A stretch of 50,072 bases of DNA from IMG/VR virus record IMGVR_UViG_3300022309_000009, positions 1-50,072 of that record. One strand, written 5' to 3'. This stretch comes from a virus. Taxonomy: Duplodnaviria; Caudoviricetes. Below, in pieces: positions 1-48,797 of this stretch; position 1 is the stretch's first letter, and every line of letters starts with the position of its first letter. The notes beneath the pieces are model-generated. The model did not search any database. It worked only from the letters and a program-made list of their open reading frames with translations, and was not told the origin of the DNA. The position numbers and the translations under genes were made by a program.

Positions 1-324
1 CGCCCTGCGGGGAAACTCTTCCTCGGGTTGAGGGAGCCGGGACGCTTAAAGCCGTTGCGATCTGGGAAGGTGTGTCGCTCACTATTGAGCAGCGTGTCCC
101 ATGCTTTCTTGCGGGCCTTGAGCCGGGTGTGGGCTTTGCGGCCTGGCTTGCGCTTGCCGATCACGGTTGCCTCCGGGGGTCATGGTCGACTATGAACGGG
201 TTGTGGTTGAGAAAAGCTTCAAATCTGTCTGCGATCTCATGCACAAGCTCGTTCAGCCGTTCCCCTTCAGTGTCGCTTCCGTCGTCGTGCCAGCCGTACT
301 CTGCGAGGATTTCGCAAAGTCGGT
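1..324. repeat. Terminal direct repeat / circularisation overlap, copy 1
   Basis: Matches 49735-50072 except T110 vs G49844 and a 14-bp tandem duplication (GGGTTGTGGTTGAG) in the right copy. Confidence 0.95.
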
Positions 325-361
325 CGTTCAGGGCGAATCTGTTCACGAAGATAGTCAACAT
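161..361 (-). CDS. Small early hypothetical protein
   Basis: 66-aa ORF with GGAGG RBS, directly downstream of a sigma70-like promoter; its stop overlaps the next GTG start. Confidence 0.6.
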   Translation of the reverse strand: MLTIFVNRFALNDRLCEILAEYGWHDDGSDTEGERLNELVHEIADRFEAFLNHNPFIVDHDPRRQP

Positions 362-2322: not shown

Positions 2323-2535
2323 TCAGAACTCCGTTCCTCGAAGCGTGTACGGATGGATTCGTTCCGCGATGGTTGAGGAGACGGGCGGCTGCTCTTCCAG
2401 CTTGACGGCGAGCAGCATGAGGTTGTAAAGCTCATCGACGCCGTAGGTGCGGTGGACGATCTGGACGAACTCGGTGTTGAGTCTCGCGGAGCAGCTCGCA
2501 CAACCGCAAGCGAGTGCGGGGGCTGGTAGTCTCAT
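2323..2535 (-). CDS. Hypothetical protein
   Basis: ATGA overlap with the upstream ORF; CGCASC motif. Confidence 0.5.
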   Translation of the reverse strand: MRLPAPALACGCASCSARLNTEFVQIVHRTYGVDELYNLMLLAVKLEEQPPVSSTIAERIHPYTLRGTEF

Positions 2536-2759
2536 CGGAGACTCTTCCAGAGTTTGAGATCGGCCTGCGCCTTCTTTAGCTGTACGTCGATCCGAGTGGT
2601 GGCTTCGGCGTAGTCGTAGGCCCGTTCAAGATTTCCTGCGATGCAAGCGGCTGTGATTTCTTCAACCAGCTTGGCGCGGGCGTTGCGCAGCTTCTCGATG
2701 CGGTACTGTGCGTTCCAGATACGACCGAGGACGTTTCTCTCTTGGGCAGCGGTGGACAT
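2532..2759 (-). CDS. Hypothetical helical protein
   Basis: GAGGAG RBS before ATG 2759. Confidence 0.6.
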   Translation of the reverse strand: MSTAAQERNVLGRIWNAQYRIEKLRNARAKLVEEITAACIAGNLERAYDYAEATTRIDVQLKKAQADLKLWKSLR

Positions 2760-2854
2760 CTTCTTCTCCTCTCGTTCGTTTGCCCTCGTTTCACCACCCA
2801 CCCGCTTCAGCTCTCGGTCGCCAGCCGCTCTTTCGCTGGGATTCCGAACTGAGC

Positions 2855-2891
2855 AAAAAAGGGGGACGGCAGCTTGTAGGCCACCGTCCCC
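2855..2891 (-). terminator. Intrinsic terminator
   Basis: GGGGACGG/CCGTCCCC stem with T6 tail on the minus strand, after ORF 2901-3806. Confidence 0.7.
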
Positions 2892-2900
2892 GCTGATTGG

Positions 2901-3806
2901 TCAGGCCGCGTTGGCCCAAGAAGCCTCGGGCCTTACGACGGCGTCTCGTTCGCGCCTCTTCGCCAGCCTGTACTCGATGGAGCGGCAGAGGCTCGCGAAG
3001 CCTGACAACTCGCCCTTCTCATCGACCTTCATCTTCACCCAGGCGACGACGTTCATCGTCTCGTTCGGCGTGAAGTGTCCGTTGGTCTGCGTCCACGAGA
3101 GAATCATGTCGCGGTCGCTGTAGACCTTTCGTCCGAAGTATTCCTGGAGGAGCCGGTGGAGCTTCACCTTCAAGAAGGCGGTCTGCTTGATCCGCCATTC
3201 TGCTCGCTCCTCGTCGCGACGAGTCTTTTCCTCGTTGGTCTGCTCGAACTCTGGCCCTGCGATCCAGCTCTCGTCTGAGTCGCGGAGGCTCCAAGCCAGC
3301 AGGTCGTCGTCCATCTGCTCCCGAAGCTCGACTGCGTCTTCGCTGTCGGTGTGGATCGTTCTGTGCGGCAAGTCACCAGCAGCGGGTGACGCGATGGGTG
3401 TAGGGAGAAGCGAGGCGAGAAGCTCCTGCGGCGTGAAGCTGGTCTTCTCGACGTACTCGTAGCTCGGGATGTCCCAAGCGGTTGAGCGGAAGACCACGAC
3501 TGCTGGGACGTTCCGCTCGTCAATCACTTCCGGGTCGGGAAGGAACGACGTGTCGTCCGGCGTCCACCAGCGGAACGATTTGCGCTGCGGGTCGAAGCGG
3601 AGTGCGTCTGAATCATCGAGGCTCCAGAGGTACTTCAGCTCGGTCAGTTCCTTCGTCCGAGCTGCTGCCTCAACGGCCTCAGCCTTCGCGATCCACGCCT
3701 GAACCGCTGCGTCCTTCGTGCTGCTGATTGGCCCGGCCTGCGCCATCAGCATGTCGAAGTACTCGTCGTCGCGATCTTCTGCGAACGTCGGGATTGAGAG
3801 GGTCAT
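2901..3806 (-). CDS. Hypothetical protein (301 aa)
   Basis: Long ORF with AGGAGG RBS and its own terminator; no family recognised. Confidence 0.75.
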   Translation of the reverse strand: MTLSIPTFAEDRDDEYFDMLMAQAGPISSTKDAAVQAWIAKAEAVEAAARTKELTELKYLWSLDDSDALRFDPQRKSFRWWTPDDTSFLPDPEVIDERNVPAVVVFRSTAWDIPSYEYVEKTSFTPQELLASLLPTPIASPAAGDLPHRTIHTDSEDAVELREQMDDDLLAWSLRDSDESWIAGPEFEQTNEEKTRRDEERAEWRIKQTAFLKVKLHRLLQEYFGRKVYSDRDMILSWTQTNGHFTPNETMNVVAWVKMKVDEKGELSGFASLCRSIEYRLAKRRERDAVVRPEASWANAA

Positions 3807-3835
3807 CTACGCCTCCTAACTAGTAGGAACAACAC

Positions 3836-4143
3836 CACTTCTATCCTGTAGGGGACGGCGAGCTTTCAACCTCCGTATGCCCGCTCGAAGGCGCTGGAGG
3901 AGTGAAATACAAAAGAGGGGGCGACGTCTCCTGTGTCGATCTGCTAGTCAGCTCTTCCGACTAGTAGATCGGCCATGGGGGCGTCGATAAATCCCCTCGG
4001 GTATTTCATGGGGGAGGCGTCTTCGACTCGCGGGCCAGGAGGTAGCCGCCTCTCCCCCTTTCCCGGCGTGTTTCTAGCCAAGGGGGAAAGGGGGAGAACA
4101 TAGGCGGCGGTGAAAGTCGCGCTTGTGTCCCCGGATAGAAGTG
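3836..4143 (+). ncRNA. Candidate structured ncRNA (long branched rod)
   Basis: Nested complementary segments from CACTTCTATCC/GGATAGAAGTG inward to TCGATCTGCTAGTC/GACTAGTAGATCGG; many non-Watson-Crick pairs are G-U on the + strand. Confidence 0.55.
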
Positions 4144-4648
4144 TGTGTGTGCGTGTTGATGGAGGTACTAACTAGCAACGGGGGAGCTGGCTCTATCTGC
4201 TCCCCTCCATTCCCGAGATGCTCCCTGTAGTTCGGGAGCATGGCATCTCGGGATCATCAACACTCAGTTAGTTCAGCTCTTGTTGACCAGTAGCTCAACG
4301 TATCGAGCATCTGAAGGGCGGGTGATGGGGTGGTGCGGTGAGATGGGCAGAGGGTTAGCTAGTACGTTGAGTGATGGCGTGCGTTGTGTTGATTAGACCA
4401 GCTAATGATGCTGAGTGGCTCGGGCGACGGTCTTCCCCCCCGCTCTTGTACATACCCCTGCATCACGGGGAGGCCCTTGCTCTTGATCTTGCACGAGGGG
4501 GTGGGGTATCAGATCGGCGGAGAGAAGTTGCATGGGGGTAGGGGTAGCGGGTGGTTGGTTCTTATTGCTCAGCCCCTTCAGACCGGCCATTTCAAGCCAT
4601 CCCTCGTAACTTTGGGTATCCGTAGCTGTACCCAAAGTTGCCCCGTCT

Positions 4649-4668
4649 TCCGACGCTTCCTGTAGGAT
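4649..4668 (+). promoter_or_regulatory. Phage promoter motif copy
   Basis: TCCGACG-CTTCC-TGTAGGAT upstream of ORF 4725. Confidence 0.65.
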
Positions 4669-4724
4669 ATACCTACCGGACAAGATCATCCGGACACTAG
4701 ATCCCTGAAGGGGGGTGCAACACA

Positions 4725-4988
4725 GTGGCAAAGGTAGTTGACGTCATCAACCTCTCGAACGCCGACATGGCTGCTTTCGGAGGCTCTGCGGTGACTGTCC
4801 CGGCCTATTCGCGGGTCAATGGCATCACCATCACGGACGTCGGTTTGGGGACTGCGCTTGACACGCTGAACGCCTGTGTCATCAAGTCCACGGCCAACGA
4901 GGTTCAGCAGCGGTACGCGGCCAAGATGCTCAAGCGGACTGCTCCATACCAAACTCTAGCCCCCGGCCTAAAAGACCAGGGAACCTAG
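4725..4988 (+). CDS. Small putative virion protein, paralog 1
   Basis: GAAGGGGGGTG RBS; similar to ORF 5047 (VDVIN..GG..VTVPAYS). Confidence 0.65.
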   Translation: MAKVVDVINLSNADMAAFGGSAVTVPAYSRVNGITITDVGLGTALDTLNACVIKSTANEVQQRYAAKMLKRTAPYQTLAPGLKDQGT

Positions 4989-5046
4989 ACACCATTTCGC
5001 CGGACAAGTTCATCCGGCCTCGACCTCTGAAGGGGGGTGAAACAAG

Positions 5047-5280
5047 ATGGCAAACGTTGATCTCGTGAACGGAACCGGCTCCTCAATCGTGGCAGGTGGT
5101 GAGACAGTCCCGGCGCACAGTGTTCTTTCCAACAGAACTGTGACCGGAGCAAACCTCATCCTTCTCACGGACGCCGGAGCTGTCGCCTACCTCGCTGGGA
5201 TGGCGTATGAGCAGAAGCGGCTCAGCTCCAAGATTATGAAGCTCGGCCGGAACCCAGGTACGGCAACTGTCTCGATGTAG
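5047..5280 (+). CDS. Small putative virion protein, paralog 2
   Basis: Same leader and RBS as ORF 4725; VDLVN..GGETVPAHS. Confidence 0.65.
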   Translation: MANVDLVNGTGSSIVAGGETVPAHSVLSNRTVTGANLILLTDAGAVAYLAGMAYEQKRLSSKIMKLGRNPGTATVSM

Positions 5281-5301
5281 GGGCCTCTGCTGCGCCAAGA
5301 C

Positions 5302-5323
5302 GAAGGCCCCTTACGGGGCCTTC
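5302..5323. terminator. Bidirectional terminator-like hairpin
   Basis: GAAGGCCCC-TTAC-GGGGCCTTC between convergent genes. Confidence 0.7.
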
Positions 5324-5349
5324 TGTCGTTCTAGTAGCCGGTCTTTGGC

Positions 5350-5664
5350 TTACGCGGCTTGGGGCGCTTCTTGGTCTTCGTTGCCATCGGCCTTCTCCTC
5401 TTCTGCGGCCTCGTCGGCTGCTGGATCTGCGGCCTCTTCCTCTTCGCTACCGAAGAACTCGCCCGCAAGCTCGAAAGCTTCGGACACGACGTCACTGATC
5501 TCTTCCATTGCGGCCTCGATTGCCTGGGCAGCCTCGATGACCTCGGCCACGAGGGCGTCGGTAGTGGAGCGGAGCTTCGAGCCGTCCTCGGCGATCAGCG
5601 TGCCGTCACCGAGCTTGTCAACGACGTTGACCGTGCCGTCTGCTGTATCTACTGGGAATCCCAT
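5350..5664 (-). CDS. Highly acidic hypothetical protein
   Basis: E/D/A-rich 104 aa; AAGGGGGTG RBS; own promoter motif. Confidence 0.7.
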   Translation of the reverse strand: MGFPVDTADGTVNVVDKLGDGTLIAEDGSKLRSTTDALVAEVIEAAQAIEAAMEEISDVVSEAFELAGEFFGSEEEEAADPAADEAAEEEKADGNEDQEAPQAA

Positions 5665-5699
5665 AGGAACACCCCCTTTCGCGGGAGATTCACGTCTTA

Positions 5700-5719
5700 A
5701 TCCTACATGGTGTGTAGGA
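5700..5719 (-). promoter_or_regulatory. Phage promoter motif copy
   Basis: Minus strand TCCTACA-CACCA-TGTAGGAT (perfect inverted arms). Confidence 0.75.
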
Positions 5720-5723
5720 CGTA

Positions 5724-5750
5724 GAAGAGGCCCCTCGTCGGGGCCTCTTC
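5724..5750 (-). terminator. Terminator-like hairpin
   Basis: GAAGAGGCCCC-N5-GGGGCCTCTTC downstream of ORF 5773. Confidence 0.65.
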
Positions 5751-5772
5751 CTGTTCCGGCTTATTGAGTCGG

Positions 5773-6024
5773 TTATGCCGACTCTGCCAGATCGTTTGTG
5801 TCTTCTAGCTGAACTGCGGGGAGCTGTTCGGCGGCGGTTGTGATGAACTCGACTTCGTCCATCACCACGCCCTTCAGCGTCATGCCCCGGTGATGGCGGA
5901 TCTGAGCGTCTTCCAGCGCCGTGATGGCGATGGCGAACTCTCTTGCGGCTGGGGGCGGGCAGTTGACTTTCTGCTCCGCCTGTATCTCTGCGATGAGAGC
6001 TGGTATCTGAGCGACGATGGTCAC
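5773..6024 (-). CDS. Acb2/Tad1-like helical-hairpin protein (candidate anti-defence sponge)
   Basis: CPPPAAREFAIAITALEDAQ resembles the RExxxAxTxLEEA helix of Acb2/Tad1-family proteins. Confidence 0.45.
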   Translation of the reverse strand: MTIVAQIPALIAEIQAEQKVNCPPPAAREFAIAITALEDAQIRHHRGMTLKGVVMDEVEFITTAAEQLPAVQLEDTNDLAESA

Positions 6025-6404
6025 GAGAGGTACGTCCTTTCGACGTGCTTGCGAGCTGCTCTAATGTCTCGGAGCAAGGCCCGTGTGTCCCACTCTAGGT
6101 CGTCAATCCCCTGGAGGCCGAACTCTTCGTATGTCCAGGGCCAGGATCGCACGGCCAGTTCTTCCTCGGCGATTCTCTGAATCCTGCGGCTGTAGCCCTG
6201 CTCCATACGGGCTGCCCTGAAGGCTCCGACGAGACTCACCTTCTCGATGAGAAAGTAGTTCCTCGTCGTTACCTTGGTCGTCAAGCCGTAGATGGTGGCC
6301 TCGGCTCTTGGCTTACCAGGGAGCTTGCGTGGCCTGCCCTCTTTGAGCCATTCCTCAGCGAGGCCGAGTAGATCGGCGACCTTGGCTGCTGTTCTTTTCT
6401 GCAT
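6021..6404 (-). CDS. Hypothetical protein
   Basis: 127-aa ORF, GTGA-coupled to the downstream gene. Confidence 0.6.
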   Translation of the reverse strand: MQKRTAAKVADLLGLAEEWLKEGRPRKLPGKPRAEATIYGLTTKVTTRNYFLIEKVSLVGAFRAARMEQGYSRRIQRIAEEELAVRSWPWTYEEFGLQGIDDLEWDTRALLRDIRAARKHVERTYLS

Positions 6405-6436
6405 CTGTCATCGTTCCTTTCTGGACGCATCCAGCC

Positions 6437-6880
6437 CTAGAAGGGGATGTCGTCCGAGGCCGGGGCTTCGGCCACTTGCGGGGCCGGTGTTTCTGAGGCT
6501 CCAGCGGCAAGTCGCTCGAAGCCGGACTGCGACGGAGCCTGAAACTCGAACTCCACCGCGAAGTCCTTATAGGTGTACGTGGCACCCTGGCGGCGACCGA
6601 GGAACGAGATGGTGATTGCCTCACGCTCTCGGAAGCTTTCACCGATGGCCTTGCGGTTCTGGGCCTCTTCCTTGAAGGCCCTCATCAGGACGGCGCTGTC
6701 GAGCCAGACCGAGTAGAGCTGCTGATCCTCGGCAGACTCGATTTCGGCGACGAACTTCTCGACCATCTCGTCTGTCCCGAACTTCTTGGCCTGGACGGCG
6801 TTGACGCTGACCAAGGCTCCGGAGAGGACTTCCTTGCCCTCTTCCTCGAAGTTCCAGATCGTGTACTCGCTTGTACTCAC
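6437..6880 (-). CDS. Second SSB-like (OB-fold) protein
   Basis: Beta-rich core (VLSGALVSV...ITISFLG...YKDFAVE) and acidic C-terminal tip SDDIPF. Confidence 0.65.
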   Translation of the reverse strand: MSTSEYTIWNFEEEGKEVLSGALVSVNAVQAKKFGTDEMVEKFVAEIESAEDQQLYSVWLDSAVLMRAFKEEAQNRKAIGESFREREAITISFLGRRQGATYTYKDFAVEFEFQAPSQSGFERLAAGASETPAPQVAEAPASDDIPF

Positions 6881-6900
6881 TTCTTCCTACCTTTCTGCCC

Positions 6901-7014
6901 TCAGAAGAGAGCGGTGATGGTCGCTTTCACGATTACGAATACTCCGACGAACCACGGAAGCACCAAGATGACAGCCGGGAGGCCCTTGACCGTCGTCGCG
7001 GACTTCTTATTCAT
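6901..7014 (-). CDS. Small single-TM membrane protein
   Basis: AGGCAGGA RBS; hydrophobic stretch; overlaps the upstream stop. Confidence 0.5.
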   Translation of the reverse strand: MNKKSATTVKGLPAVILVLPWFVGVFVIVKATITALF

Positions 7015-7229
7015 CAGCGTTTCCTGCCTTTCGGTCGAGAGGGCCTTGGCGGTGCTGGTTCTGTCGGGAAGAGCGGAGCCTGGATACCGACAACGCGCCA
7101 TCTCTTGTGGCGCACGCGGAAGTTCTTGAGGGCCTGCGCCTCTGACGTTGCCCCCGTGTAGTAGAGGTACGTGGCGTCGGGCTTGCCAGGCTCGTTCGTG
7201 TGGATGATCCAGGTGCCGGTGCGGGCCAT
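7014..7229 (-). CDS. Small basic hypothetical protein
   Basis: GGGAAGGA RBS; first gene after a minus-strand promoter motif. Confidence 0.55.
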   Translation of the reverse strand: MARTGTWIIHTNEPGKPDATYLYYTGATSEAQALKNFRVRHKRWRVVGIQAPLFPTEPAPPRPSRPKGRKR

Positions 7230-7263
7230 AAGTCCTTCCCTGCGAGTTCGCTTATCTGTCTAC

Positions 7264-7283
7264 AGAGTATATGGCGGGTCGGA
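7264..7283 (-). promoter_or_regulatory. Degenerate promoter motif copy (divergent pair with 7301)
   Basis: Minus strand TCCGACC-CGCCA-TATACTCT. Confidence 0.45.
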
Positions 7284-7300
7284 CGGCACCTGTCGCTCCG

Positions 7301-7320
7301 TCCTACTTGTCGTGTAGAGT
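7301..7320 (+). promoter_or_regulatory. Phage promoter motif copy
   Basis: TCCTACT-TGTCG-TGTAGAGT upstream of the structured region. Confidence 0.6.
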
Positions 7321-7327
7321 GTCCGAC

Positions 7328-7740
7328 ATGGAGATTCGGTCGCACCGCATCTTCCATCGAACAGGCCGACACGACCGGCAAGCCCGTTACAGCGGGCTTG
7401 CAGAAATGAGGTAGGCAGCGACGATTTAGTGAAAACCAGCTAGAGAGCCTGCCTAGAGATTAGGTGAAGAAGCAGGAGACGCCATGGAGCAGGAATCGGG
7501 AAGCCGCCGATTCTGGAGTCGAGAGACTCAAGCCATACGGGCAAGTGCGTCGCGGGGATTGACCAGCCGCCGAGACTTTTCGGAAACGGCGAACCCCAGG
7601 GGGCTTCGGAGTACAGATGCGAACGGGGCGCTATCTCTTGGACGTAGGACTAGCTGGATAGAGGGTTGACCTCCCTCTAAGTCAAAGGGTCTGAGCCTCC
7701 GGGCTACTCCATCCGGGGAAGTTGAGCCTACCCAGGCTCG
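7328..7740 (+). ncRNA. Candidate multi-domain structured ncRNA with pseudoknot
   Basis: Begins 7 nt after a promoter motif; long-range helix 7436-7443/7650-7657; GAGA-tetraloop hairpin 7516-7529; H-type pseudoknot 7659-7685. Confidence 0.5.
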
Positions 7741-7760
7741 TCCTACAGTCCGTGTAGGAT
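7741..7760 (+). promoter_or_regulatory. Phage promoter motif copy
   Basis: TCCTACA-GTCCG-TGTAGGAT, 9 nt before ATG 7770. Confidence 0.8.
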
Positions 7761-7769
7761 AGGGAGAGA

Positions 7770-8060
7770 ATGGCTGGCCCTGTTCCCGTCCATCAAGCAG
7801 TAGCCGTCTCGACTACGGCTGTCTTGCTCTGCGATTCCAGAGCGACGAGGCGAGGCGCCTTCGTCTTCAACAAGTCGAGTCAGGTCTTGTATGTCAAGTA
7901 CGGCGAGGCGGACGTTTCTGCGACGAGCTTCACGCTCCGGATACCTGCGAACTGGTGGTTCGAGATGCCGTGGGGCAACGTCTACACGGGCAAGATTTAC
8001 GGCCTCTGGGCCGGAGCCGATGGCGCTGGTTCTGCACAGGTGACGGAGCTGGTCAACTAA
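7770..8060 (+). CDS. Small beta-rich putative virion protein
   Basis: First gene of the late operon; beta-sandwich-like pattern. Confidence 0.65.
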   Translation: MAGPVPVHQAVAVSTTAVLLCDSRATRRGAFVFNKSSQVLYVKYGEADVSATSFTLRIPANWWFEMPWGNVYTGKIYGLWAGADGAGSAQVTELVN

Positions 8061-9082
8061 TGCCTCTCTACGGCGAATCCAGTGGAGGTACGTCGGATCA
8101 TGGTTTGCTGTTGGGGCTTGAGGACGACGATCATCCGCAGTACGCGCTTGATACTGACCTGACGGCCCATGTGGCTGCTGCTGATCCGCACACTGGCTAT
8201 CAGAAGGAGTCGGAGAAGGGGGCGGTGAGCGGCTATGCGTCTCTGGACGCTGGCGGAAAAGTTCCGGATGCGCAGCTTCCTGCGACCATCACCCGTGACA
8301 CTGAGGCCGTCCTCGACGGTGATGCCGCTGGCGGCGTGCTGTCTGGGACGTATCCGAACCCCGGCTTTGCAGCCGACATGGCGACTCAGGTCGAGCTGGA
8401 CAACCACGGGATCGACACGACGTCTGTGCATGGCATCGCCAATACGGCTGATCTGCTGGCCCGCACTCTTGCTGATGCTAAGGGGGACATCCTCGCTGCG
8501 ACGGCTGCTGATGTCATCGCGCGGGTTGCTGTCGGCACGGATGGGCAAGTCCTGGTCGCTGACTCTGTCTCCACACCTGGAATCAAATGGGCCGATTCTC
8601 CCGCTGTTGATCTTGCTGCCCACCTGTCCAACCCTACCGATGCACACAACGCCTCCGCTATCTCGATTGCGGATACGGCTCTGGAGTTCACGGCTACCGA
8701 CGTAGAGGGGGCCTTGGCTGAGCTGGCGGCTCAGGATGTAACGGATGAAGCGGCGTTGGCTGCTCATCTTGCCGACGCGGTAGCTGCTCATGCGGCGTCG
8801 GCCATTGCCTTCACTCCGAACGGGAGCATCGCGGCGACTGACGTTCAGGCTGCGATTGTCGAGGTCAGGGACGAGGCGAGCGGTTCGGGTATCCCGGCGA
8901 CGATTGTCGATGCTAAGGGTGACTTGATCGCGGCCACAGCCGCCGATACGGTGGCGCGACTGGCTGCCGGTACTGACGGACAGATTCTTGAGTCTCGCGC
9001 TTCTGAGGCGACTGGTCTGAAGTGGGTTGCTGCGCCTGCTGGCGGAGACGGCAATCTTTTCAACTACGCATTCTTCAACTAG
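8060..9082 (+). CDS. Tail fibre-like protein with internal repeats
   Basis: DAKGDxxAATAADxxARxAxGTDGQxL twice; AHxASAI twice; GYASLDAGGKVPDAQLP fibre-type motif; start at TAATG overlap. Confidence 0.7.
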   Translation: MPLYGESSGGTSDHGLLLGLEDDDHPQYALDTDLTAHVAAADPHTGYQKESEKGAVSGYASLDAGGKVPDAQLPATITRDTEAVLDGDAAGGVLSGTYPNPGFAADMATQVELDNHGIDTTSVHGIANTADLLARTLADAKGDILAATAADVIARVAVGTDGQVLVADSVSTPGIKWADSPAVDLAAHLSNPTDAHNASAISIADTALEFTATDVEGALAELAAQDVTDEAALAAHLADAVAAHAASAIAFTPNGSIAATDVQAAIVEVRDEASGSGIPATIVDAKGDLIAATAADTVARLAAGTDGQILESRASEATGLKWVAAPAGGDGNLFNYAFFN

Positions 9083-9094
9083 AAAGGGTTTACC

Positions 9095-9487
9095 ATGGCC
9101 ACTGCCCCCGCTTTTGCTTCAACTCCGAGGATTGGTGTTGCAGCCGTTTCGACCGCTAATACGAATCGAGACGGCACCGGGACAATCGCGACTGTCCTGA
9201 CTGCTGGCTCCAGCGGAACGCTTATCAAGGAGATCCTCTGCAAGGCGACTGGCGATCCTGCCGATTCTGTCGTCACGATTTTCTTGCACGACGGTACGAA
9301 CTACTGGCTCTTCGATGAGTTCGATCTTGGGAATCCGGCTGCGGCCTCTACGACCGTGGAGGGGTATCGCATCGCCAAGACGTATGCGAACCTCGTCTTG
9401 CCGACAAGTTGGTCTGTGCGAGCTGCGATTACTGTCGCCTTGACTTCTGGCGTTATCAACGTCTATGCGCTTGGTGGCGATCTGTAG
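9095..9487 (+). CDS. Putative virion / tail protein
   Basis: MATAPAFASTP...VYALGGDL; T/A/G-rich; in the fibre cluster. Confidence 0.65.
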   Translation: MATAPAFASTPRIGVAAVSTANTNRDGTGTIATVLTAGSSGTLIKEILCKATGDPADSVVTIFLHDGTNYWLFDEFDLGNPAAASTTVEGYRIAKTYANLVLPTSWSVRAAITVALTSGVINVYALGGDL

Positions 9488-9489
9488 CC

Positions 9490-10233
9490 GTGAATCAAGG
9501 GGTCTATGGTTTTCCGGTGGGGCAGGATTTCCCGAACGGGCTTCTGGGTCTGCCCCCCAGACTCGATTCCTTGGAACACACAGGGCCACCTATCACTGAC
9601 TATGTTGGCTGGTGGGACAGCTCAGACTATTCGTCTTTGACGATTGTTTCTAATCTCATCACCCAATGGAATGACTTGACTGGCAGCGGCAATCATTTCA
9701 TTCAGACCAGCGCCTCGCTCCAACCCTCTTACGGAAGCCGGAAGATCAATGGGATTGTTGTTCCCGACTTCGATGGTTCTTCCGACTACATGACTGGCGG
9801 TCTTTCGGTTGGTGCGCCTGCGACGGTTTTTTGGGTTGGTGAACCCGACTCGCTTGGCACCCTTAATATGTGGGGTACTGTTCCCAACGGTCTTACCGGG
9901 AGGATCAACCCATCAGGACAGTTGTCAACCCTTAAGGATGGGGTCGCTGGCATAACACTTACTACCGCTGCGATGCAGGTCGGTCAACCTGTTGTCTGTG
10001 TTCATACGGCTGATGGTTCTGTTGGCGTTCTGCGTCAGAATGAAACGTGGTTGTCACAGGCTTTTGCCCAGACTCCGGTCGCGGGTGGTTTCTCCATTGG
10101 CTCGCGCAATGGGGCTGGCTCTGCGTGGTGGGACGGCGCTCTTGCGGAGTTCTTTTGTTACGACCGCATCCTGACTACTGAAGAGATTTCTTCAATGGTT
10201 GATTACTTGTCTCAGAAGTGGGGCGTTGGCTAG
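9490..10233 (+). CDS. Concanavalin-A/LamG-like tail or receptor-binding protein
   Basis: WWDSSD...WNDLTGSGNH...FDGSSDYM...WDGALAEFFCYDRIL pattern. Confidence 0.75.
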   Translation: MNQGVYGFPVGQDFPNGLLGLPPRLDSLEHTGPPITDYVGWWDSSDYSSLTIVSNLITQWNDLTGSGNHFIQTSASLQPSYGSRKINGIVVPDFDGSSDYMTGGLSVGAPATVFWVGEPDSLGTLNMWGTVPNGLTGRINPSGQLSTLKDGVAGITLTTAAMQVGQPVVCVHTADGSVGVLRQNETWLSQAFAQTPVAGGFSIGSRNGAGSAWWDGALAEFFCYDRILTTEEISSMVDYLSQKWGVG

Positions 10234-10251
10234 ATCGTCCTAGAGAGGTAG

Positions 10252-10271
10252 TCCTACCAGCCGTGTAGGAT
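10252..10271 (+). promoter_or_regulatory. Phage promoter motif copy
   Basis: TCCTACC-AGCCG-TGTAGGAT, 8 nt before ATG 10280. Confidence 0.75.
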
Positions 10272-10279
10272 TGACCTAC

Positions 10280-10855
10280 ATGGCCGTCCTGGCAATCAAG
10301 ACGGAGCCGAAGTGCAAGCTCTGTAGGCATCCGAACCGCGCTGAGATAGATGTCCTTCTGGAGCGGAGGTCGAACGGCGACCTTGATGAGAATGGTCGTC
10401 GCTTCAACGCCGAATACGTTCTGGAGATCCTTGGCACCTGGGGCGTGACGAATCCGACCCTGCTGAACATCAAGGGCCACTGGAAGAACCACTGTGAGGT
10501 CGTCAGTTCCGAAGAGGCCGAGGAGGTTGCCGCCCAGCTCTCTGAGCTGAACCAGGAGATGCTTGCGATCCTGGACGAGTCGGACGGCTCTGTCGATTCC
10601 GACCTTCGCGCGATCTTCCGACTCGGGACGAAGCGATTGCGTGGCCGCATCCTTCGCGGCGAAGATCCTGGCGTCACGCTCGACCATCAGCTTAAGGCTT
10701 CTTCTGAGCTGACGAAGCGGTCGCACAACGAATCGACGCGGGAGTTGCTCGGCACCCTGGCCGGTGGCCTTGTCATGGCCATCGAGCAGCAGAAGCAGCC
10801 GAAGCAGATCGAGTCTGCTTACGAGGTCATCGAGCAGGAGGCGGTCGAGTCGTGA
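10280..10855 (+). CDS. Probable terminase small subunit
   Basis: CKLCRHPNRAEID...HWKNH N-terminal domain and helical C-terminus; upstream of TerL. Confidence 0.55.
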   Translation: MAVLAIKTEPKCKLCRHPNRAEIDVLLERRSNGDLDENGRRFNAEYVLEILGTWGVTNPTLLNIKGHWKNHCEVVSSEEAEEVAAQLSELNQEMLAILDESDGSVDSDLRAIFRLGTKRLRGRILRGEDPGVTLDHQLKASSELTKRSHNESTRELLGTLAGGLVMAIEQQKQPKQIESAYEVIEQEAVES

Positions 10856-10979
10856 AGCGTCGCGGCCCCTTTTACTTCCAGCTCTGGGGTGGGATGTTCA
10901 CGCGCGGTTGCGCGTTCGCGTTGGCCCTCGGCGGCTCGTATTTCTGCGTGGAGTTCCGGCGCGATCCGAGGCACCGCTG

Positions 10980-11462
10980 ATGCGGATAGCCCTGACCACT
11001 GAGGAGATGATTCGCTATGGGGCTGCGGGCCTGGCACGCACGTCGAATGCGCTTGAGATGCGTCGTGTCGGCGCTCATGGTTTTGACCGCAATCACGAAC
11101 GCTGGCAGATCGACGTCGAGGGCGTCCTTACCGAAGCCGCTGCCGCGAAGGCGTTGAATCTTCCGTACAACCCGGTGGTCGGCGAGTTGGACACGCTCCT
11201 GGGTGACATCGGCCCCGGCCTTCAGGTTCGCGGGACGAAGTACCCCACCGGTTCTCTTCTGATCCATAGCAAGGATCAAGACGATGACATCTTCATCCTC
11301 GTGACGGGGATCTACGGCGTCTACGACATACGGGGCTGGATTCATGCCAGGGACGGCAAGCTGGAGAAGCTCTGGAAGATGTACAAGGGTCGAGGCGCGT
11401 TCTGGGTCGGCCAGGAGTGGCTGAAGCCCATCGAGACGCTTGATCTGGGGGCGTCGAAATGA
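10980..11462 (+). CDS. Hypothetical protein, possible PD-(D/E)XK-like fold
   Basis: GVLTEAAAAK...GDI...LQVR...YDIRGWI pattern. Confidence 0.55.
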   Translation: MRIALTTEEMIRYGAAGLARTSNALEMRRVGAHGFDRNHERWQIDVEGVLTEAAAAKALNLPYNPVVGELDTLLGDIGPGLQVRGTKYPTGSLLIHSKDQDDDIFILVTGIYGVYDIRGWIHARDGKLEKLWKMYKGRGAFWVGQEWLKPIETLDLGASK

Positions 11463-11542
11463 CCCTGTGGACTCTCATTCTGTGGTGTGCCGTCTTCTGG
11501 ATGGTCAACATCATTCTCGTTTACTGGGTCTTCTTCGTATGA
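11459..11542 (+). CDS. 27-aa membrane micro-protein
   Basis: MTLWTLILWCAVFWMVNIILVYWVFFV; ATGA overlaps at both ends. Confidence 0.5.
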   Translation: MTLWTLILWCAVFWMVNIILVYWVFFV

Positions 11543-11859
11543 GCGTCGAGAAGTACGCCCGTCGCGCTCTGTGGCGCATGACCTTCTTCCGACTCTGCGG
11601 GGAAATGTTCGTTCTGCCGCAAGTCTTTCTTCGGATGATCCAGTCCGCCTGCGGCTTTCTCGGTTCTTGGTTCAAGAACCTGGAGATGCTGTTCTTCACT
11701 CTGGAGTTGGATGCCGCGCGGCGCTACAAGCTGCTTACCGGAATCGACTTGCCCGCTGCGGCTCACGATCCCGGTCGTTACGCGCTCCTTGACGCTCAGC
11801 GCAACGAGGATGCTCAGACCTCTTTCATGCAACAGCTCGGCGCGGATATAGACGAATGA
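11539..11859 (+). CDS. Hypothetical protein
   Basis: ATGA-coupled into the TerL ATPase gene. Confidence 0.6.
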   Translation: MSVEKYARRALWRMTFFRLCGEMFVLPQVFLRMIQSACGFLGSWFKNLEMLFFTLELDAARRYKLLTGIDLPAAAHDPGRYALLDAQRNEDAQTSFMQQLGADIDE

Positions 11860-12698
11860 GTCTTGAGGTAGGCACCGGCAAGGCCAAGGAGGCGACCTCA
11901 CTCCTTGAGGCTTTCGCGATGGGCCGGAATGACCCGGTCTACTTCTGCGACTTCTTCATGGGCCGCAAGCTGCACGACGGGCAGGCCGAGTTCATGCTCA
12001 ACGCGCAGGCGAAGATCAATGCCCTTGCGACTGCGAACCGTTGGGGCAAGACCACCGAGCTGACGGGGATGCACTTCCACTCCGGCACGTACAAGATCGG
12101 TGCCGAGTCCAAGTACATGAACCCGGACGGCACGCTCGACTTTGATATCTTCACGAAGCTCAAGTACGATACCGTGCATACGGCGGGCGAGTGGGAACAG
12201 GCGTCTTTCGTCTGGGAGGACGCTCTCAAGATCATCGGTGAGAACGCTCGCATGGCTGCGTTGGTCAATGAGTTTCCGCGTTCTAAGCCGCCGTTCATCC
12301 GGGGCATCGCAGGTTGGAAGTGGATGTTCCGCACGCTCGGCAACAACGCCTCGAACATCGACGGCAAGTCGATCTATTTGCTCTCGATTGACGAGGCGGG
12401 CTGGATCGACAACTTGGACGAGATGATGCGGAACGTCCTCCGTGTACGTACAGCAGACGTACGCGGTCGCATTGTTATCGTCGGGACGTTCAAGCCCGGT
12501 ATCTCGCGTGATTTCTACAAGGTCTGCGTCCGAGCCTCCGCGTACACGGGGCGCCGCATCGACTTTGCCCACGGGACTGACGAGGAGGGTGACGCAGGCC
12601 CGCAGTCTCTTGACCTGGCTATCTCGAAATACCTGCGTGAGTTCGGAATCAACCTCGATGAGTACCGCGACGCGCTGGAGCGTGGAGTCAATGACTGA
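11856..12698 (+). CDS. Terminase large subunit, ATPase part
   Basis: Adenine-binding Q motif (LHDGQ), Walker A ANRWGKT, Walker B LLSIDEAG, coupling motif IVIVGT. Confidence 0.9.
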   Translation: MSLEVGTGKAKEATSLLEAFAMGRNDPVYFCDFFMGRKLHDGQAEFMLNAQAKINALATANRWGKTTELTGMHFHSGTYKIGAESKYMNPDGTLDFDIFTKLKYDTVHTAGEWEQASFVWEDALKIIGENARMAALVNEFPRSKPPFIRGIAGWKWMFRTLGNNASNIDGKSIYLLSIDEAGWIDNLDEMMRNVLRVRTADVRGRIVIVGTFKPGISRDFYKVCVRASAYTGRRIDFAHGTDEEGDAGPQSLDLAISKYLREFGINLDEYRDALERGVND

Positions 12699-12999
12699 GC
12701 CACTCGCTGTTCCAATGATGGCTGACGTCGCTCTGGCATGGTGGTACTGCCTCGACTGCGGCGAGAAAAACCCGATGGAAGTACACATCAGGAGTCATTG
12801 GACTTCTGCTCATCGCGAGGCCGACTCTACTGAGTTGCCTGCCAACGGCCTTGACTACGCGCTGGGCGGGCAGCTACTTCTGCTCCAGAAGCGCCGTGCT
12901 GCCTGGATTGACGAGCGAGCCGAGATGTTCTCCAACGAGATGCACGAGCGGTTCGGGGCTGAGGACTTCGTGGCTGAGGCGGAGATTCGCGATGCCTGA
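12691..12999 (+). CDS. C2H2-type zinc-finger protein between the terminase halves
   Basis: YCLDCG...HIRSHWTSAH; 8-bp overlaps with both neighbours; GGAG RBS. Confidence 0.65.
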   Translation: MTEPLAVPMMADVALAWWYCLDCGEKNPMEVHIRSHWTSAHREADSTELPANGLDYALGGQLLLLQKRRAAWIDERAEMFSNEMHERFGAEDFVAEAEIRDA

Positions 13000-13933
13000 T
13001 CCGTCGCTGTCCTCCGACCGCCCCGAATACTACGTTCAGACGGGAAGCATGTTCGAGAACCCGTACGGCGTTCCGCATGAGGAAATCGTCGCCATGATTC
13101 TGGAGCTGCCCGCCGAGATGGCCGCTCAGGTCGTCTTCGGCAAGTACGTCGAGAGCAGCGGCTTGGTCTTCACGGGCGAACTGGTGCAGATGCTCTTCGA
13201 CCGCGATGGTGAGCATTATGGCGCTGTCTCGCAGCAGCGAATCACTGGCGACCGCTGGGTAGATCCAGCCGCTCTAGAGCAGGCCCGCTTGATGACGCAG
13301 GATCAGAAGCGGACGATCTTCGCGACCGGAGTGGACTTCGCCCGGATCAACGACTTCACGGTCATCTTCAGTCTCGACATCCGCACCCGACCCGCTCGCG
13401 TCGTCTCTTTCCGGCGACTGAACCGTGTGCCGTGGGAGGGCATCTATCGCGAAGTGGGGCGGGCGATCCACCAGTTCGGCCCGTCTGTGCTGGCCGACGC
13501 CACCGGCATGGCTGGGGACGTCATCCTCGATGCACTTGAGGATCGCCACTACTGCCCGATTCACGACCGGACTACGCTCGGTGGGCAGACGTACTGTCAG
13601 AACCGGAACGGCGAGCCGCTTGGCGGCTGCCGTGATGAGCAGATGATCCCGCTGAACACGGTGGACGGCTTCCAGTTCACGAAGTCCAGCAAGCAGGGCC
13701 TCATCGAGCATCTCCGCAATCTGCTCTCGGTTGGCTACCGGGCCTCGTCGGATGAGCCGTTCGGCTGGCTCCGCAGCCCGCCCATTGTGGCTCTGGAAGA
13801 GGAGCTGGCTTTTTACTCGTGGGATGACAAGGGGCTTGACACCGACTGCGTGATGGCACTCGCCCTAGCGGCCTGGCAGGGAATCGAGCTGGCTCCTGGC
13901 ACGAGTTACTTTGGCTCGCCGTTCGGCACGTAA
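12992..13933 (+). CDS. Terminase large subunit, RNase H-like nuclease part
   Basis: GVDFARINDFTV, DATGMAGD and DTDCVMALALA acidic residues; GGAG RBS before ATG 12992. Confidence 0.88.
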   Translation: MPDPSLSSDRPEYYVQTGSMFENPYGVPHEEIVAMILELPAEMAAQVVFGKYVESSGLVFTGELVQMLFDRDGEHYGAVSQQRITGDRWVDPAALEQARLMTQDQKRTIFATGVDFARINDFTVIFSLDIRTRPARVVSFRRLNRVPWEGIYREVGRAIHQFGPSVLADATGMAGDVILDALEDRHYCPIHDRTTLGGQTYCQNRNGEPLGGCRDEQMIPLNTVDGFQFTKSSKQGLIEHLRNLLSVGYRASSDEPFGWLRSPPIVALEEELAFYSWDDKGLDTDCVMALALAAWQGIELAPGTSYFGSPFGT

Positions 13934-39059: not shown

Positions 39060-39296
39060 TCATGGTCGTTCGTTCTTTCGAGCCAGGCGTGGGACTGGTC
39101 GGAGCTGTGTTGTGCCTTCGGGGTCGTTACGAGTTCGCGTGGCGGCGATGTGCGCCGAAAAGAGGAGGAGATTTGCGATGTCCTTGTCCGAGAGTGGTAC
39201 TTCACGGATTCGCCCGCTGGGTGTCGAGAGCATGAGCTTGATCGGCTGCTTGAATCCTTGCTGTGTGATGATGTTTACGAATCTGAGGTCGGTCAT
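39060..39296 (-). CDS. Hypothetical protein
   Basis: CCCCGGAGGC RBS motif; ATGA overlap with dnaB. Confidence 0.55.
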   Translation of the reverse strand: MTDLRFVNIITQQGFKQPIKLMLSTPSGRIREVPLSDKDIANLLLFSAHIAATRTRNDPEGTTQLRPVPRLARKNERP

Positions 39297-40618: not shown

Positions 40619-41247
40619 CTCGGTGGCCTGAGACAGTCGAAGGGGGCTAGGTCTTGCAGTCGTGCCTGGTTGTGCGGGTATCTGAGGATCAGGGCTGAAA
40701 GACGGATGGTTTGGCGTGCGAGTCGGCGGACATGCATCTCGTCTAAGTCTTGATCTGCACGAACTCGGATTAGGTCTGCTGCCAGCGTCTTGTTGCCGGG
40801 AAGGGTGGGGATATCGGTGTCGCGGTCGAGGTCGAGGCCGAGAGCCATTGTGATGGCTCCGGCGTAAGGGGCAGATGTCACCATGACCCTTCCGTAACAG
40901 AGGTCGTAGATGCGTCGCTTGGCTGCGTTCGGTGAGCCACGAAGGATGAGTGCGACTTGATGGGCGAGCAGTTCTTTCCAGCCATGGCCGAGGCCATCGC
41001 AATCTGTTGCTTCGAGGTATTTCTGGTTTTTTTCCAGTAGCACTCGAAGCGGCTCGGATGGGACTACCCATTCTTTCCATCCGTACCACGGGTTTTTGGA
41101 TGTTGTCGAGTAGTTGGCTTGCTTCTGGGCTGCTGCGTATGCTTCGGCTTCTTCGTAGGTGTCGAAGCGGACTTGCTTGCCTCGGTAGCCGTATCGTCCG
41201 ACGTATCGGGTGGTTCCGTCCTTGAGGGTGACGGTGAGAACGCTCAT
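40615..41247 (-). CDS. Putative DNA-binding protein
   Basis: N-terminal beta/helix motif (FDTYEEAEAYA) and a central HTH-like segment; coupled to both helicase genes. Confidence 0.5.
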   Translation of the reverse strand: MSVLTVTLKDGTTRYVGRYGYRGKQVRFDTYEEAEAYAAAQKQANYSTTSKNPWYGWKEWVVPSEPLRVLLEKNQKYLEATDCDGLGHGWKELLAHQVALILRGSPNAAKRRIYDLCYGRVMVTSAPYAGAITMALGLDLDRDTDIPTLPGNKTLAADLIRVRADQDLDEMHVRRLARQTIRLSALILRYPHNQARLQDLAPFDCLRPPR

Positions 41248-48350: not shown

Positions 48351-48797
48351 TCACGACCGCACCAGCGCTGGGGCGCCATTTCGTCGTGCTTTCACTGATT
48401 CCGCGTCCCAGCCCCAAGGGCCTTCGTATTCGATTTCCTGCCCTTTACGTTCGAGCTTGTCTAAAAGTGCGAGGGTGAAGTCGAATGCGTCTGAGATTTC
48501 CCAGGACGGATGTTCGCAGGTTTGGTAGTTGTAACAGTGAGCCGTGCAAGAGGCTTCTCCTGGTGTTGGGGAGAAGTCGGGGTCTGTGTATTCGTATGCG
48601 TCGGCTTCCCAGCTGTTGAAGCCCATCAGTGGGTCGTCGTGGTGTGAGTAACGGTAGCCGACGCTCGCAGCATTTTCGCGCCAGAGCATACGGCCCAGTT
48701 TGTTGAGATCGCCCAGTTCGTCTTCTCCTTTGACGAAGGTGAGAGCCGATTTGATAAGGACGTCGATGTGTTCTTTCTGGACGATCCAAGCACTCAT
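48351..48797 (-). CDS. Hypothetical phage protein
   Basis: MSAWIV...ENAASVGYRY...CYNYQTCEH...PWGW; GGAGG RBS motif. Confidence 0.7.
   Translation of the reverse strand: MSAWIVQKEHIDVLIKSALTFVKGEDELGDLNKLGRMLWRENAASVGYRYSHHDDPLMGFNSWEADAYEYTDPDFSPTPGEASCTAHCYNYQTCEHPSWEISDAFDFTLALLDKLERKGQEIEYEGPWGWDAESVKARRNGAPALVRS

What the first reader, a model, noticed from the sequence alone, without database searches (positions are those of the whole stretch)
7328..7740. Promoter-driven ~410-nt multi-branched RNA with a pseudoknot at the head of the virion operon
Seen: it starts 7 nt after motif 7301 and ends at motif 7741. Hairpins lie at 7328-7357 and 7378-7401. A long-range helix CCAGCTAG/CTAGCTGG (7436/7650), extended by CCTGC/GTAGG and AGAGAT/ATCTCT, encloses a GACGC/GCGTC domain with GAATCGG/CCGATTC and GAGTC-GAGA-GACTC (GNRA loop), plus a GGGG/CCCC domain. 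Then TAGAGGG/CCCTCTA has a loop TTGAC complementary to downstream GTCAA (H-type pseudoknot). TAGGCAG/CTGCCTA offers an alternative pairing. Inference: an unclassified late ncRNA (scaffold, packaging RNA, ribozyme or switch). A 28-aa leaderless ORF and the 61-aa ORF 7484-7669 are alternative readings.
Basis: partly seen in the sequence, partly recalled or inferred. Interest (0 to 1): 0.8.

Follow-up and report, generated by a model that had tools for sequence, protein, structure and literature searches.

The report
Promoter-flanked non-coding spacer in a phage
A 413-base stretch without a gene sits between two copies of a phage's own promoter just before its virion genes; it is probably transcribed and is conserved, but the elaborate RNA fold proposed for it is no better than chance.

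Summary
The window is a complete ~49.7-kb uncultivated phage. Positions 7230-7769 are a protein-free gap between leftward early genes and rightward virion genes. Two same-direction copies of the phage's 21-bp motif GTCCTAC-N4-CGTGTAGGAT (7300, 7740) bracket the 413-nt unit 7328-7740. The motif behaves as a promoter for leaderless mRNAs: its right arm keeps TAnnnT, and a start codon follows 4-9 nt later. All the claimed helices exist. The fold is not exceptional, however: z = -1.64, and 64% of same-size windows of this genome fold better after GC correction. The proposed pseudoknot is sterically implausible. Rfam gives nothing. The 61-aa ORF is rejected on three grounds: non-coding codon usage, no homologues among 1.84 billion representatives, and a near-identical strain that changes its frame. 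The unit does look functional. It is about as conserved as neighbouring genes in a relative (87%), has the most extreme A-over-T skew in the genome, and is enriched in perfect local hairpins. The only whole-genome relative carries an unrelated sequence in the same promoter-bounded slot. Best reading: a promoter-driven, exchangeable non-coding transcription unit (leader or small RNA) of unproven structure. No covariation test was possible.

The parts
7014..7229 (-). 71-aa gene, the last leftward (early-side) gene before the gap
   Evidence: ORF. Codon-usage score +0.16 per codon and GC3 0.77, in the range of real genes. No Pfam or PHROG family.
7230..7299 (.). Short divergent spacer between the 71-aa gene and the upstream promoter copy
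   Evidence: Read. No sigma-70 consensus promoter found.
7300..7320 (+). Upstream copy of the phage promoter motif (2 mismatches; -10-like TAGAGT)
   Evidence: ATG 7328 lies 7 nt after it, the spacing seen at the leaderless genes.
7328..7740 (+). 413-nt non-coding unit (the finding)
   Evidence: No frame scores as coding. No Rfam family. Highest A-over-T skew of the genome. 87% identical in a relative's contig.
7328..7414 (+). 28-codon ORF starting at the predicted transcript 5' end; status uncertain
   Evidence: Codon score -0.07. Its AUG is paired in a 5' hairpin of -11.1 kcal/mol. No family hit.
7378..7401 (+). Perfect 9-bp G+C-rich hairpin with a 6-nt loop and no U tract after it
   Evidence: pairing probability 1.00. 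Not called a terminator by the scan.
7436..7657 (+). Domain enclosed by the candidate long-range helix 7436-7443/7650-7657
   Evidence: Both 8-mers confirmed. Ensemble probability 0.47, absent from the MFE structure.
7484..7669 (+). 61-aa ORF, rejected as a gene
   Evidence: Codon score -0.22. Only hit is P0004, covering 24-25 residues. P0004 continues in another frame.
7493..7513 (+). Perfect 7-bp hairpin (GAATCGG/CCGATTC)
7556..7577 (+). Segment replaced by about 90 nt in a near-identical strain; lies in the 5' half of the GGGG/CCCC arm
   Evidence: P0004 residues 1-24 match the frame of 7484-7555. Residues 55-81 match another frame at 7578-7658 (21 of 27 identical). The 30 residues between have no counterpart.
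7659..7679 (+). Perfect 7-bp hairpin (TAGAGGG/CCCTCTA) with a 7-nt loop; the claimed pseudoknot partner is 7681-7685
   Evidence: hairpin probability 0.84.
7724..7739 (+). 6-bp hairpin directly abutting the second promoter copy
7740..7760 (+). Consensus copy of the promoter motif (0 mismatches; TAGGAT)
   Evidence: ATG 7770 lies 9 nt after it.
7770..8060 (+). 96-aa gene, the first gene on the virion side
   Evidence: Codon score +0.18. Two homologues at 80-81% identity.

Best explanation
Positions 7328-7740 are a non-coding transcription unit sitting in a promoter-bounded slot of a phage genome. The phage has its own 21-bp promoter, GTCCTAC-N4-CGTGTAGGAT. The right arm is a TAnnnT -10 box, and transcription is inferred to start 6-9 nt later, usually on the start codon of a leaderless gene. 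A slightly weaker copy at 7300 points into the unit, and a consensus copy at 7740 follows it. RNA polymerase starting at about A7328 would therefore make a purine-rich, hairpin-studded RNA with no credible protein. That RNA either ends before 7740 as a short RNA of about 410 nt, or runs on as a long 5' leader of the virion-gene message. The second promoter independently makes the leaderless message for gene 7770. The unit behaves as an exchangeable cassette: a moderately distant relative keeps it, a near-identical strain has swapped one internal arm, and the only full-length relative carries unrelated sequence between the same promoter copies.

Shown: the absence of coding, the motif statistics, the conservation, the composition and the cassette behaviour. 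Inferred: the transcription start, the RNA's existence as a discrete species and any function. No particular global fold is supported.
For: Promoter: the motif gives 21 hits against 2.95 expected and is shared with relatives G001 and L015. Of 36 copies with <=4 mismatches in the window plus G001, 26 keep TAnnnT. Of those 26, 14 have ATG/GTG opening >=24 codons at +4 to +9, against 9.6% of 20,000 random positions. Variant right arms (TAGAGT, TATGAT, TAAGAT, TAGTAT, TAGGCT) keep T, A and the final T, which is the -10 pattern. Mycobacterium tuberculosis shows TANNNT centred 7-12 bp upstream of 73% of primary start sites (passages of PMC3898074).

Non-coding: all frames of the gap score like non-coding sequence. 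The 61-aa ORF scores -0.22 per codon and the 28-aa ORF -0.07. Real genes average +0.25, with a 5th percentile of +0.03. The 61-aa ORF has no relative among 1.84 billion representatives except P0004, which shares residues 1-25 and then continues in another frame of the window. There are no Pfam or PHROG hits for the four small ORFs or for P0004 at E <= 0.1.

Constraint: a contig of DNA run X8 lies on 7336-7721 with 50 substitutions and 10 gaps in 386 nt (87%). The seven listed X8 pieces on neighbouring genes are 81-90% identical. Only 8 of the 108 laid X8 pieces are listed.

Strand-specific composition: A-over-T skew is +0.19 (genome mean -0.14, sd 0.11, top 0.05% of windows). Purine content is 0.57 (top 0.15%).

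Local hairpins: top 2.4% of windows.

Cassette: G001 has a syntenic gap of about 380 nt bounded by motif copies, with no similarity inside. Local alignment score is 22, and 36 of 200 shuffles do as well.
Against: No transcript end has been mapped. RNA-library contigs cover the whole neighbourhood, and the tool warns that such libraries may hold DNA. No intrinsic terminator with a U tract exists in 6800-8200, so a discrete 410-nt species is unproven. The 7300 copy deviates from the consensus (TAGAGT) and may be weak or inactive. It is also the only one of the 14 start-associated copies whose ORF is tiny, so it could be a decayed promoter-gene pair. G001's upstream motif in the syntenic gap is degenerate: it ends in TAGGAG and is not among the <=4-mismatch copies. 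The conservation rests on one listed contig. The host is unknown, so reading the motif as a sigma-70-type -10 box is inference.
Confidence: 0.5

Rival explanations
1. One reading: a discrete, specifically folded multi-branched RNA of about 410 nt with a pseudoknot. It would be a new class of late phage RNA acting as a scaffold, packaging RNA, ribozyme or switch.
For: The stretch is non-coding and promoter-flanked. It has four perfect local hairpins (top 2.4% of windows). It has purine and A excess on the transcribed strand and 87% conservation in a relative. The only large difference in a near-identical strain is a swap confined to one predicted arm, 7556-7577, with the flanks unchanged. That pattern is common for variable arms of structured RNAs.
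Against: The fold energy is ordinary: z = -1.64, 8 of 100 shuffles as good, and the genome-wide residual is +0.38 sd. The long-range helix has probability 0.47 and is not in the MFE structure. The hairpin stems are all perfect Watson-Crick, so they carry no strand-specific G-U signal. The pseudoknot leaves 0-nt and 1-nt crossing loops. There is no Rfam match. The related phage G001 has no similar sequence in the same place. No covariation data exist.
Confidence: 0.15
2. The functional product is the 28-codon leaderless ORF 7328-7414, as a small basic peptide or as a leader peptide. In the leader-peptide case, its translation through the 7378-7401 hairpin would tune read-through into the virion genes. 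The rest of the unit would be untranslated spacer.
For: ATG 7328 sits exactly where the other 13 start-associated promoter copies place a real start codon. [quoted passage not shown] G001 has a 24-codon ORF 8 nt after a degenerate motif. Like the window's ORF, it ends about 10 nt after a G+C-rich hairpin.
Against: The codon score of -0.07 is below the 5th percentile of real genes. The AUG is buried in the most stable 5' hairpin of the window's seven promoter-proximal starts, -11.1 kcal/mol. The two peptides are not significantly alike: 1428 of 5000 shuffles do as well. A post-hoc test restricted to the N-terminus gives 75 of 5000. No family hit. This reading leaves 325 conserved nucleotides unexplained.
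Confidence: 0.15
3. The stretch works as DNA, not RNA: a regulatory, replication-origin, packaging or recombination region between the early and virion modules. The hairpins would be protein-binding palindromes or cruciforms.
For: It lies at the junction of divergent modules. All the hairpin stems are perfect Watson-Crick palindromes. The promoter motif is itself a quasi-palindrome that could bind a dimeric regulator.
Against: The palindromes all differ from one another, and there are no iterons or repeated operator-like sites. The strong A-over-T and purine asymmetry is strand-specific, which a symmetric DNA site does not require. The terminase genes lie 4 kb away and the helicase genes more than 30 kb away.
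Confidence: 0.12
4. The 61-aa ORF 7484-7669, which has an AGGAG 5 nt upstream, encodes a small protein.
For: AGGAG lies at 7474-7478, 5 nt before the ATG. The ORF is open. A gene caller called an 81-aa ORF from the same ATG in a related contig.
Against: The codon score of -0.22 per codon is typical of non-coding frames. The query itself did not come back from the 5.8-billion-cluster collection, so no called product identical to it appears to be on record there. P0004 shares only residues 1-24 and then reads a different frame of the window. The exhaustive HMMER search finds nothing else. No Pfam or PHROG family.
Confidence: 0.03

Closest known systems
Short promoter-proximal RNA of lambdoid late operons (PR'-tR' transcript: lambda 6S RNA, StxS)
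   Same: A late promoter at the head of the late or virion genes is followed by a few hundred non-coding nucleotides. The short RNA can be a by-product of regulation and also act on its own (start of the abstract of PMC7547250; the lambda details are recalled).
   Different: No U-tract terminator is found. No Q-like antiterminator was identified in the neighbouring genes scanned. A second promoter follows the unit and further copies lie inside the virion module, so antitermination is not needed.
Morons (independent transcription units inserted between phage genes)
   Same: It has its own promoter, lies between two conserved modules, and differs between related phages. Morons are described as independent transcription units spread by horizontal transfer (start of the abstract of PMC3594210).
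   Different: Morons carry a protein gene and usually a terminator. This unit has no credible ORF and no canonical terminator.
Leaderless short upstream ORFs of mycobacteria
   Same: The predicted transcript begins with ATG right after a TAnnnT box and opens a short ORF ahead of an operon (PMC4633059).
   Different: The host is unknown. The ORF is not shown to be conserved or translated.
phi29 pRNA, GOLLD and ROOL (phage-associated structured RNAs)
   Same: Non-coding RNAs of hundreds of nucleotides encoded by phages or prophages (start of the abstract of bioRxiv 10.1101/2024.12.08.627333, for GOLLD and ROOL; pRNA is recalled).
   Different: No Rfam model matched, even at E <= 10. No evidence of a conserved fold.
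Genome-wide conserved intergenic motifs of actinophages (phiC31 conserved inverted repeats, L5 stoperators, Cluster K start-associated sequences)
   Same: A quasi-palindromic motif is repeated in short intergenic gaps, co-oriented with transcription and close to start codons. A Cluster K paper was seen only as a search listing (PMC3203893). The descriptions of all three systems are recalled, not read.
   Different: Here the invariant positions are those of a -10 box (TAnnnT), and the start codon follows without a Shine-Dalgarno sequence. The nearest isolated phages by capsid protein infect Proteobacteria, at <30% identity.

Membership tests
Any Rfam 15 family (including pRNA, GOLLD, ROOL, riboswitches, self-cleaving ribozymes) | Score at or above the family's gathering threshold | tested here: not met
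   0 matches in the whole window at gathering. At E <= 10 on 7150-7850 the only match is the Mg-II riboswitch, 12.9 bits against 40, E = 9.6.
Structured non-coding RNA (generic) | Fold more stable than composition-matched sequence | tested here: not met
   z = -1.64, with 8 of 100 shuffles as stable. 64% of 497 same-size windows of the genome are more stable after GC correction.
Structured non-coding RNA (generic) | Compensatory base changes across homologues | not testable with these tools
H-type pseudoknot | Connecting loops long enough to cross the two stems | tested here: not met
   Stem 1 is 7659-7665/7673-7679 and stem 2 is 7666-7670/7681-7685. That leaves 0 nt between the 5' strands and 1 nt (7680) to span a 7-bp stem (read). 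The loop-length rule is recalled.
Lambdoid PR'-tR' late leader | Intrinsic terminator a few hundred nt after the late promoter | tested here: not met
   0 terminator-like sites in 6800-8200. Only hairpins without U tracts are present.
Lambdoid PR'-tR' late leader | Q-type antiterminator gene upstream | tested here: inconclusive
   The neighbouring small genes have no Pfam or PHROG family. Absence of a hit does not exclude a novel factor.
Moron | Own promoter, and presence or absence varying between related phages | tested here: met
   Motif copy at 7300. G001 carries unrelated sequence in the same slot.
Moron | Carries a protein-coding gene | tested here: not met
   Codon scores of all frames are in the non-coding range. 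No homologues or families for the small ORFs.
Leaderless short-ORF leader peptide | Start codon at the transcript's first base | tested here: inconclusive
   The spacing of 7 nt from TAGAGT fits the 4-9 nt seen at 13 real genes. No 5' end has been mapped.
Leaderless short-ORF leader peptide | ORF conserved in relatives | tested here: inconclusive
   G001 has a 24-codon ORF in the same place, but the similarity is not significant (1428 of 5000 shuffles). The X8 alignment starts only at 7336.

The most novel reading that the evidence does not exclude
A new class of late-expressed phage RNA: a discrete, purine-rich transcript of about 410 nt made from its own copy of the late promoter. It would be conserved as strongly as the proteins around it and carried in an exchangeable slot at the head of the virion genes. 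It could act in trans, for example in particle assembly or packaging or against host or early-phage messages. The unrelated C-rich cassette in the same slot of the sister phage would be a functional analogue.
Probability: 0.12. Interest if true: 0.75.

Novelty: new member of a known kind. Interest (0 to 1): 0.33.

Why it matters
If the unit is a real RNA gene, it would be a rare case of a virulent-type phage spending over 400 nt and a dedicated late promoter on a non-coding product. It would also show promoter copies acting as boundaries of exchangeable cassettes. As it stands, the useful results are negative or contextual. The proposed fold and pseudoknot should not be taken as evidence, and the 61-aa ORF should not be annotated. 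The surrounding motif is a well-supported promoter for leaderless genes in a phage lineage with almost no sequenced relatives.

Tried and rejected
Searches for homologous DNA:
- blastn 'distant' of 7230-7770 against 50,697 phage records gave no match.
- The search for related loci in viral contigs with the 96-aa and 147-aa neighbours gave none.
- The capsid protein found only G001.
- The 274-aa protein found two distant loci that are not syntenic.
- The terminase alignment in metagenome contigs gave 4 loci. One is G001 again. L012, L013 and L014 are at 46-54% identity and have no motif.
- The terminase alignment in viral contigs gave L015, which has only 1.9 kb upstream, plus G001.
- Two scans of genome contigs gave none.
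- The portal alignment gave G001 and L136. L136 ends 561 nt upstream of its portal gene.
- The strict motif scan of viral contigs found only G001.
None of the 117 loci numbered L018 or higher then on file, all but L017 of what fetched, has a protein or DNA match to the window. That scan was wasted.
- The search of earlier findings by sequence and by relatives gave nothing.

RNA libraries: contigs of X4, X5 and X6 lie on 28, 30 and 25 of the 30 bins of 2500-12500. They include 7043-7321, 7276-7608, 7401-7687 and 7675-8184. This shows neither a discrete RNA nor transcription, because contigs carry no ends or strand and DNA may be present. In these near-identical strains the four listed pieces inside the two non-coding gaps differ by 0.25-0.6%, against 0.5-5.6% for the 20 listed pieces on genes. 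Given the mosaic variation I did not treat this as significant.

Ideas dropped:
- Anti-Shine-Dalgarno (CCUCC) RNA. There are 2 sites in the unit, top 10% of windows only. G001's C-rich tract is top 0.5% for CCCC, but the feature is not shared.
- A terminator hairpin before every promoter copy. This is not consistent across 19 copies.
- A 5' hairpin as proof against translation. Values overlap those of real genes.
- Sub-threshold Rfam hits. The only hit is not credible.
- tRNA or attP. There are 0 tRNAs, and no integrase turned up among the ORFs scanned (not every ORF was scanned).
- Iterons. None found.

Host: the nearest isolated phages share <30% capsid identity and infect Proteobacteria. 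The portal protein finds nothing. No host is claimed.

Supplementary files of papers were not consulted.

Full report
**What the window is.** The window is one IMG/VR virus record of 50,072 bp. Its two ends repeat each other over about 338 bp, so the genome is about 49.7 kb. PHROG scans identify a rightward virion module:
- tail-fibre-like proteins from 8060,
- a split terminase at 11856-13933,
- a portal gene at 13986,
- a 2354-aa protein,
- a major head protein at 23713.

Replication genes run leftward: a DnaB-like helicase at 39293-41089 and a 1409-aa helicase-domain protein. An SSB gene lies at 606-992. The finding lies in the gap 7230-7769, between the leftward 71-aa gene (7014-7229) and the rightward 96-aa gene (7770-8060). 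The 96-aa gene is real: two homologues share 80-81% identity.

**The flanking motif.** GTCCTAC-N4-CGTGTAG occurs 21 times at <=3 mismatches against 2.95 expected, and 0 of 100 shuffles reach that number. The copies at 7300 and 7740 both point rightward. The motif is shared with the only full-length relative, G001 (IMGVR_UViG_3300018079_000014, capsid 69% identical), and with fragment L015.

In the window plus G001 there are 36 copies with <=4 mismatches, and 26 of them keep TAnnnT in the right arm. Of those 26, 14 are followed at +4 to +9 by an ATG or GTG opening >=24 codons. The control rate is 9.6% of 20,000 random positions. Thirteen of the 14 open ORFs of 89-617 codons with no Shine-Dalgarno sequence in between. 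The variant right arms keep exactly the T, A and final T. This is the signature of a -10 box driving leaderless messages, as described for Mycobacterium tuberculosis (passages of PMC3898074; PMC4633059). The 'promoter-driven' part of the finding is therefore reasonable, though it remains inferred. The 7300 copy (TAGAGT, ATG at +7) is the only one of the 14 whose ORF is tiny, at 28 codons.

**Is the unit coding?** No. I trained a codon log-likelihood on 16 long genes. Real genes average +0.25 per codon, with a 5th percentile of +0.03. Off-frame sequence averages -0.28. The 61-aa ORF scores -0.22, the 28-aa ORF -0.07, and no frame across 7230-7770 rises above +0.06.

The 61-aa ORF finds a single protein in both the 5.8-billion-cluster word search and the exhaustive search of 1.84 billion representatives. 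That protein is P0004, 81 aa, from a 2.1-kb contig. P0004 equals the ORF for residues 1-24. It then has 30 unrelated residues. It ends with 27 residues that match a different reading frame of the window at 7578-7658, 21 of 27 identical.

So a near-identical strain has about 90 nt in place of 7556-7577, and the frame is not preserved. The swap also falls in one predicted arm, the GGGG/CCCC domain, and leaves the flanks untouched. Pfam and PHROGs give nothing for the small ORFs.

The energy is unremarkable, however:
- The + strand folds at -157.3 kcal/mol, z = -1.64, and 8 of 100 shuffles fold as well.
- The - strand has z = -0.52.
- Among 497 windows of 413 nt from this genome, the unit's GC-corrected residual is +0.38 sd, and 64% of windows are more stable.

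By contrast, window 3801-4213 is at -7.1 sd. The long-range helix has ensemble probability 0.47 and is not in the MFE structure, which uses the alternative TAGGCAG/CTGCCTA pairing instead. The pseudoknot would need a 0-nt and a 1-nt connecting loop, which I regard as sterically implausible (rule recalled). Rfam 15 has no match. The one positive structural signal is local: four distinct perfect hairpins with stems of 6-9 bp, which puts the unit in the top 2.4% of windows.

**Signs of function.**
- *Conservation.* A contig of DNA run X8 lies on 7336-7721 with 50 substitutions and 10 gaps (87%). The seven listed X8 pieces on neighbouring genes are 81-90% identical. Only 8 of the 108 laid pieces are listed. 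One end of that alignment is where similarity stops, so a module boundary lies within about 20 nt of an edge of the unit.
- *Composition.* The unit has the highest A-over-T skew of any 413-nt window in the genome: +0.19 against a mean of -0.14, top 0.05%. It also has nearly the highest purine content (0.57, top 0.15%). This asymmetry is strand-specific and fits selection on a rightward transcript better than on symmetric DNA sites.
- *No repeats.* There are no iterons or repeated operators and no tRNA.

**The relative.** G001 is collinear with the window from 10244 onward. Upstream of that point it has a gap of about 380 nt in the same position. The gap begins with a degenerate motif, followed 8 nt later by an ATG that opens 24 codons. 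A G+C-rich hairpin and a C-rich tract follow, and the gap ends with motif copies 6 nt before the next gene.

Apart from the motif, nothing inside is similar to the window. The local alignment score is 22 and 36 of 200 shuffles do as well. blastn finds only motif copies. The two short peptides are not significantly alike. The slot and its promoter boundaries are therefore conserved, but the cargo is not. The neighbouring genes 7770-10250 also differ between the two phages and are also bounded by motif copies.

**Expression.** Three metatranscriptome libraries hold the phage, but as contigs spread over the whole 10 kb examined. The tool itself warns that this shows neither transcription nor ends. 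No discrete RNA is shown or excluded.

**Verdict.** The specific fold, the pseudoknot and any named RNA role are not supported.

My best reading, at 0.5, is a promoter-driven, exchangeable non-coding transcription unit acting as a leader or small RNA. It is closest in logic to the short promoter-proximal RNAs of lambdoid late operons (PMC7547250, abstract start only). It also resembles morons without a gene (PMC3594210, abstract start only). The rivals are:
- a specifically structured new RNA (0.15),
- a leaderless 28-residue peptide or leader-peptide device (0.15),
- a DNA-level element (0.12),
- the 61-aa protein (0.03).

That test remains to be done.

Noticed in passing
window 3801-4213: By far the most stable 413-nt window of the genome after GC correction. 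The residual is -7.1 sd on the + strand and -3.9 sd on the - strand, among 497 windows. It overlaps another first-stage note (the 3836-4143 rod).
   Followed up: partly
window 1-338 and 49735-50072: The two ends repeat each other (211 nt plus 127 nt at 100% identity, with a 13-14 nt offset between the blocks). This means a closed circle or terminal repeat, although the record is classed as linear.
   Followed up: no
window 4648-38697 and G001: The 21-bp promoter motif sits in short gaps throughout the virion module (10251, 13958, 22964, 25989, 29320). Some copies instead precede leadered genes that have a GGAGG Shine-Dalgarno sequence 30-35 nt downstream (5720-, 22964, 33968).
   Followed up: partly
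window 5773-6024 (-): The 83-aa protein has a weak Acb2/Tad1 hairpin-domain hit (E = 1.3e-4, 22.5 bits, below the cut-off of 27). It is a possible anti-defence nucleotide sponge.
   Followed up: no
window 6437-6880 (-): The 147-aa protein ends in ...DDIPF, the acidic tail typical of SSB proteins (recalled), but has no Pfam or PHROG hit. A true SSB lies at 606-992.
   Followed up: no
window 48794-49351 (-): The 185-aa protein matches signal peptidase II (Peptidase_A8, 28.2 bits against a cut-off of 25, E = 2.4e-6).
   Followed up: no
L009 5680-5620 (minus strand; G001 syntenic gap): A striking C-rich tract lies on the transcribed strand. The gap's CCCC count is in the top 0.5% of that genome's windows.
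   Followed up: partly
L013 3143-4340 and L014 1566-2764: Two more distant relatives are 94.5% identical to each other over 2.7 kb. They share a stretch of low coding quality (a 509-nt gap plus small low-GC3 ORFs) next to their divergent junction.
   Followed up: no
window 4609-4647 and 5722-5750: Perfect hairpins of 14 bp and 12 bp lie directly upstream of the promoter copies at 4648 (+) and 5720 (-). They may be terminators of the preceding units.
   Followed up: no
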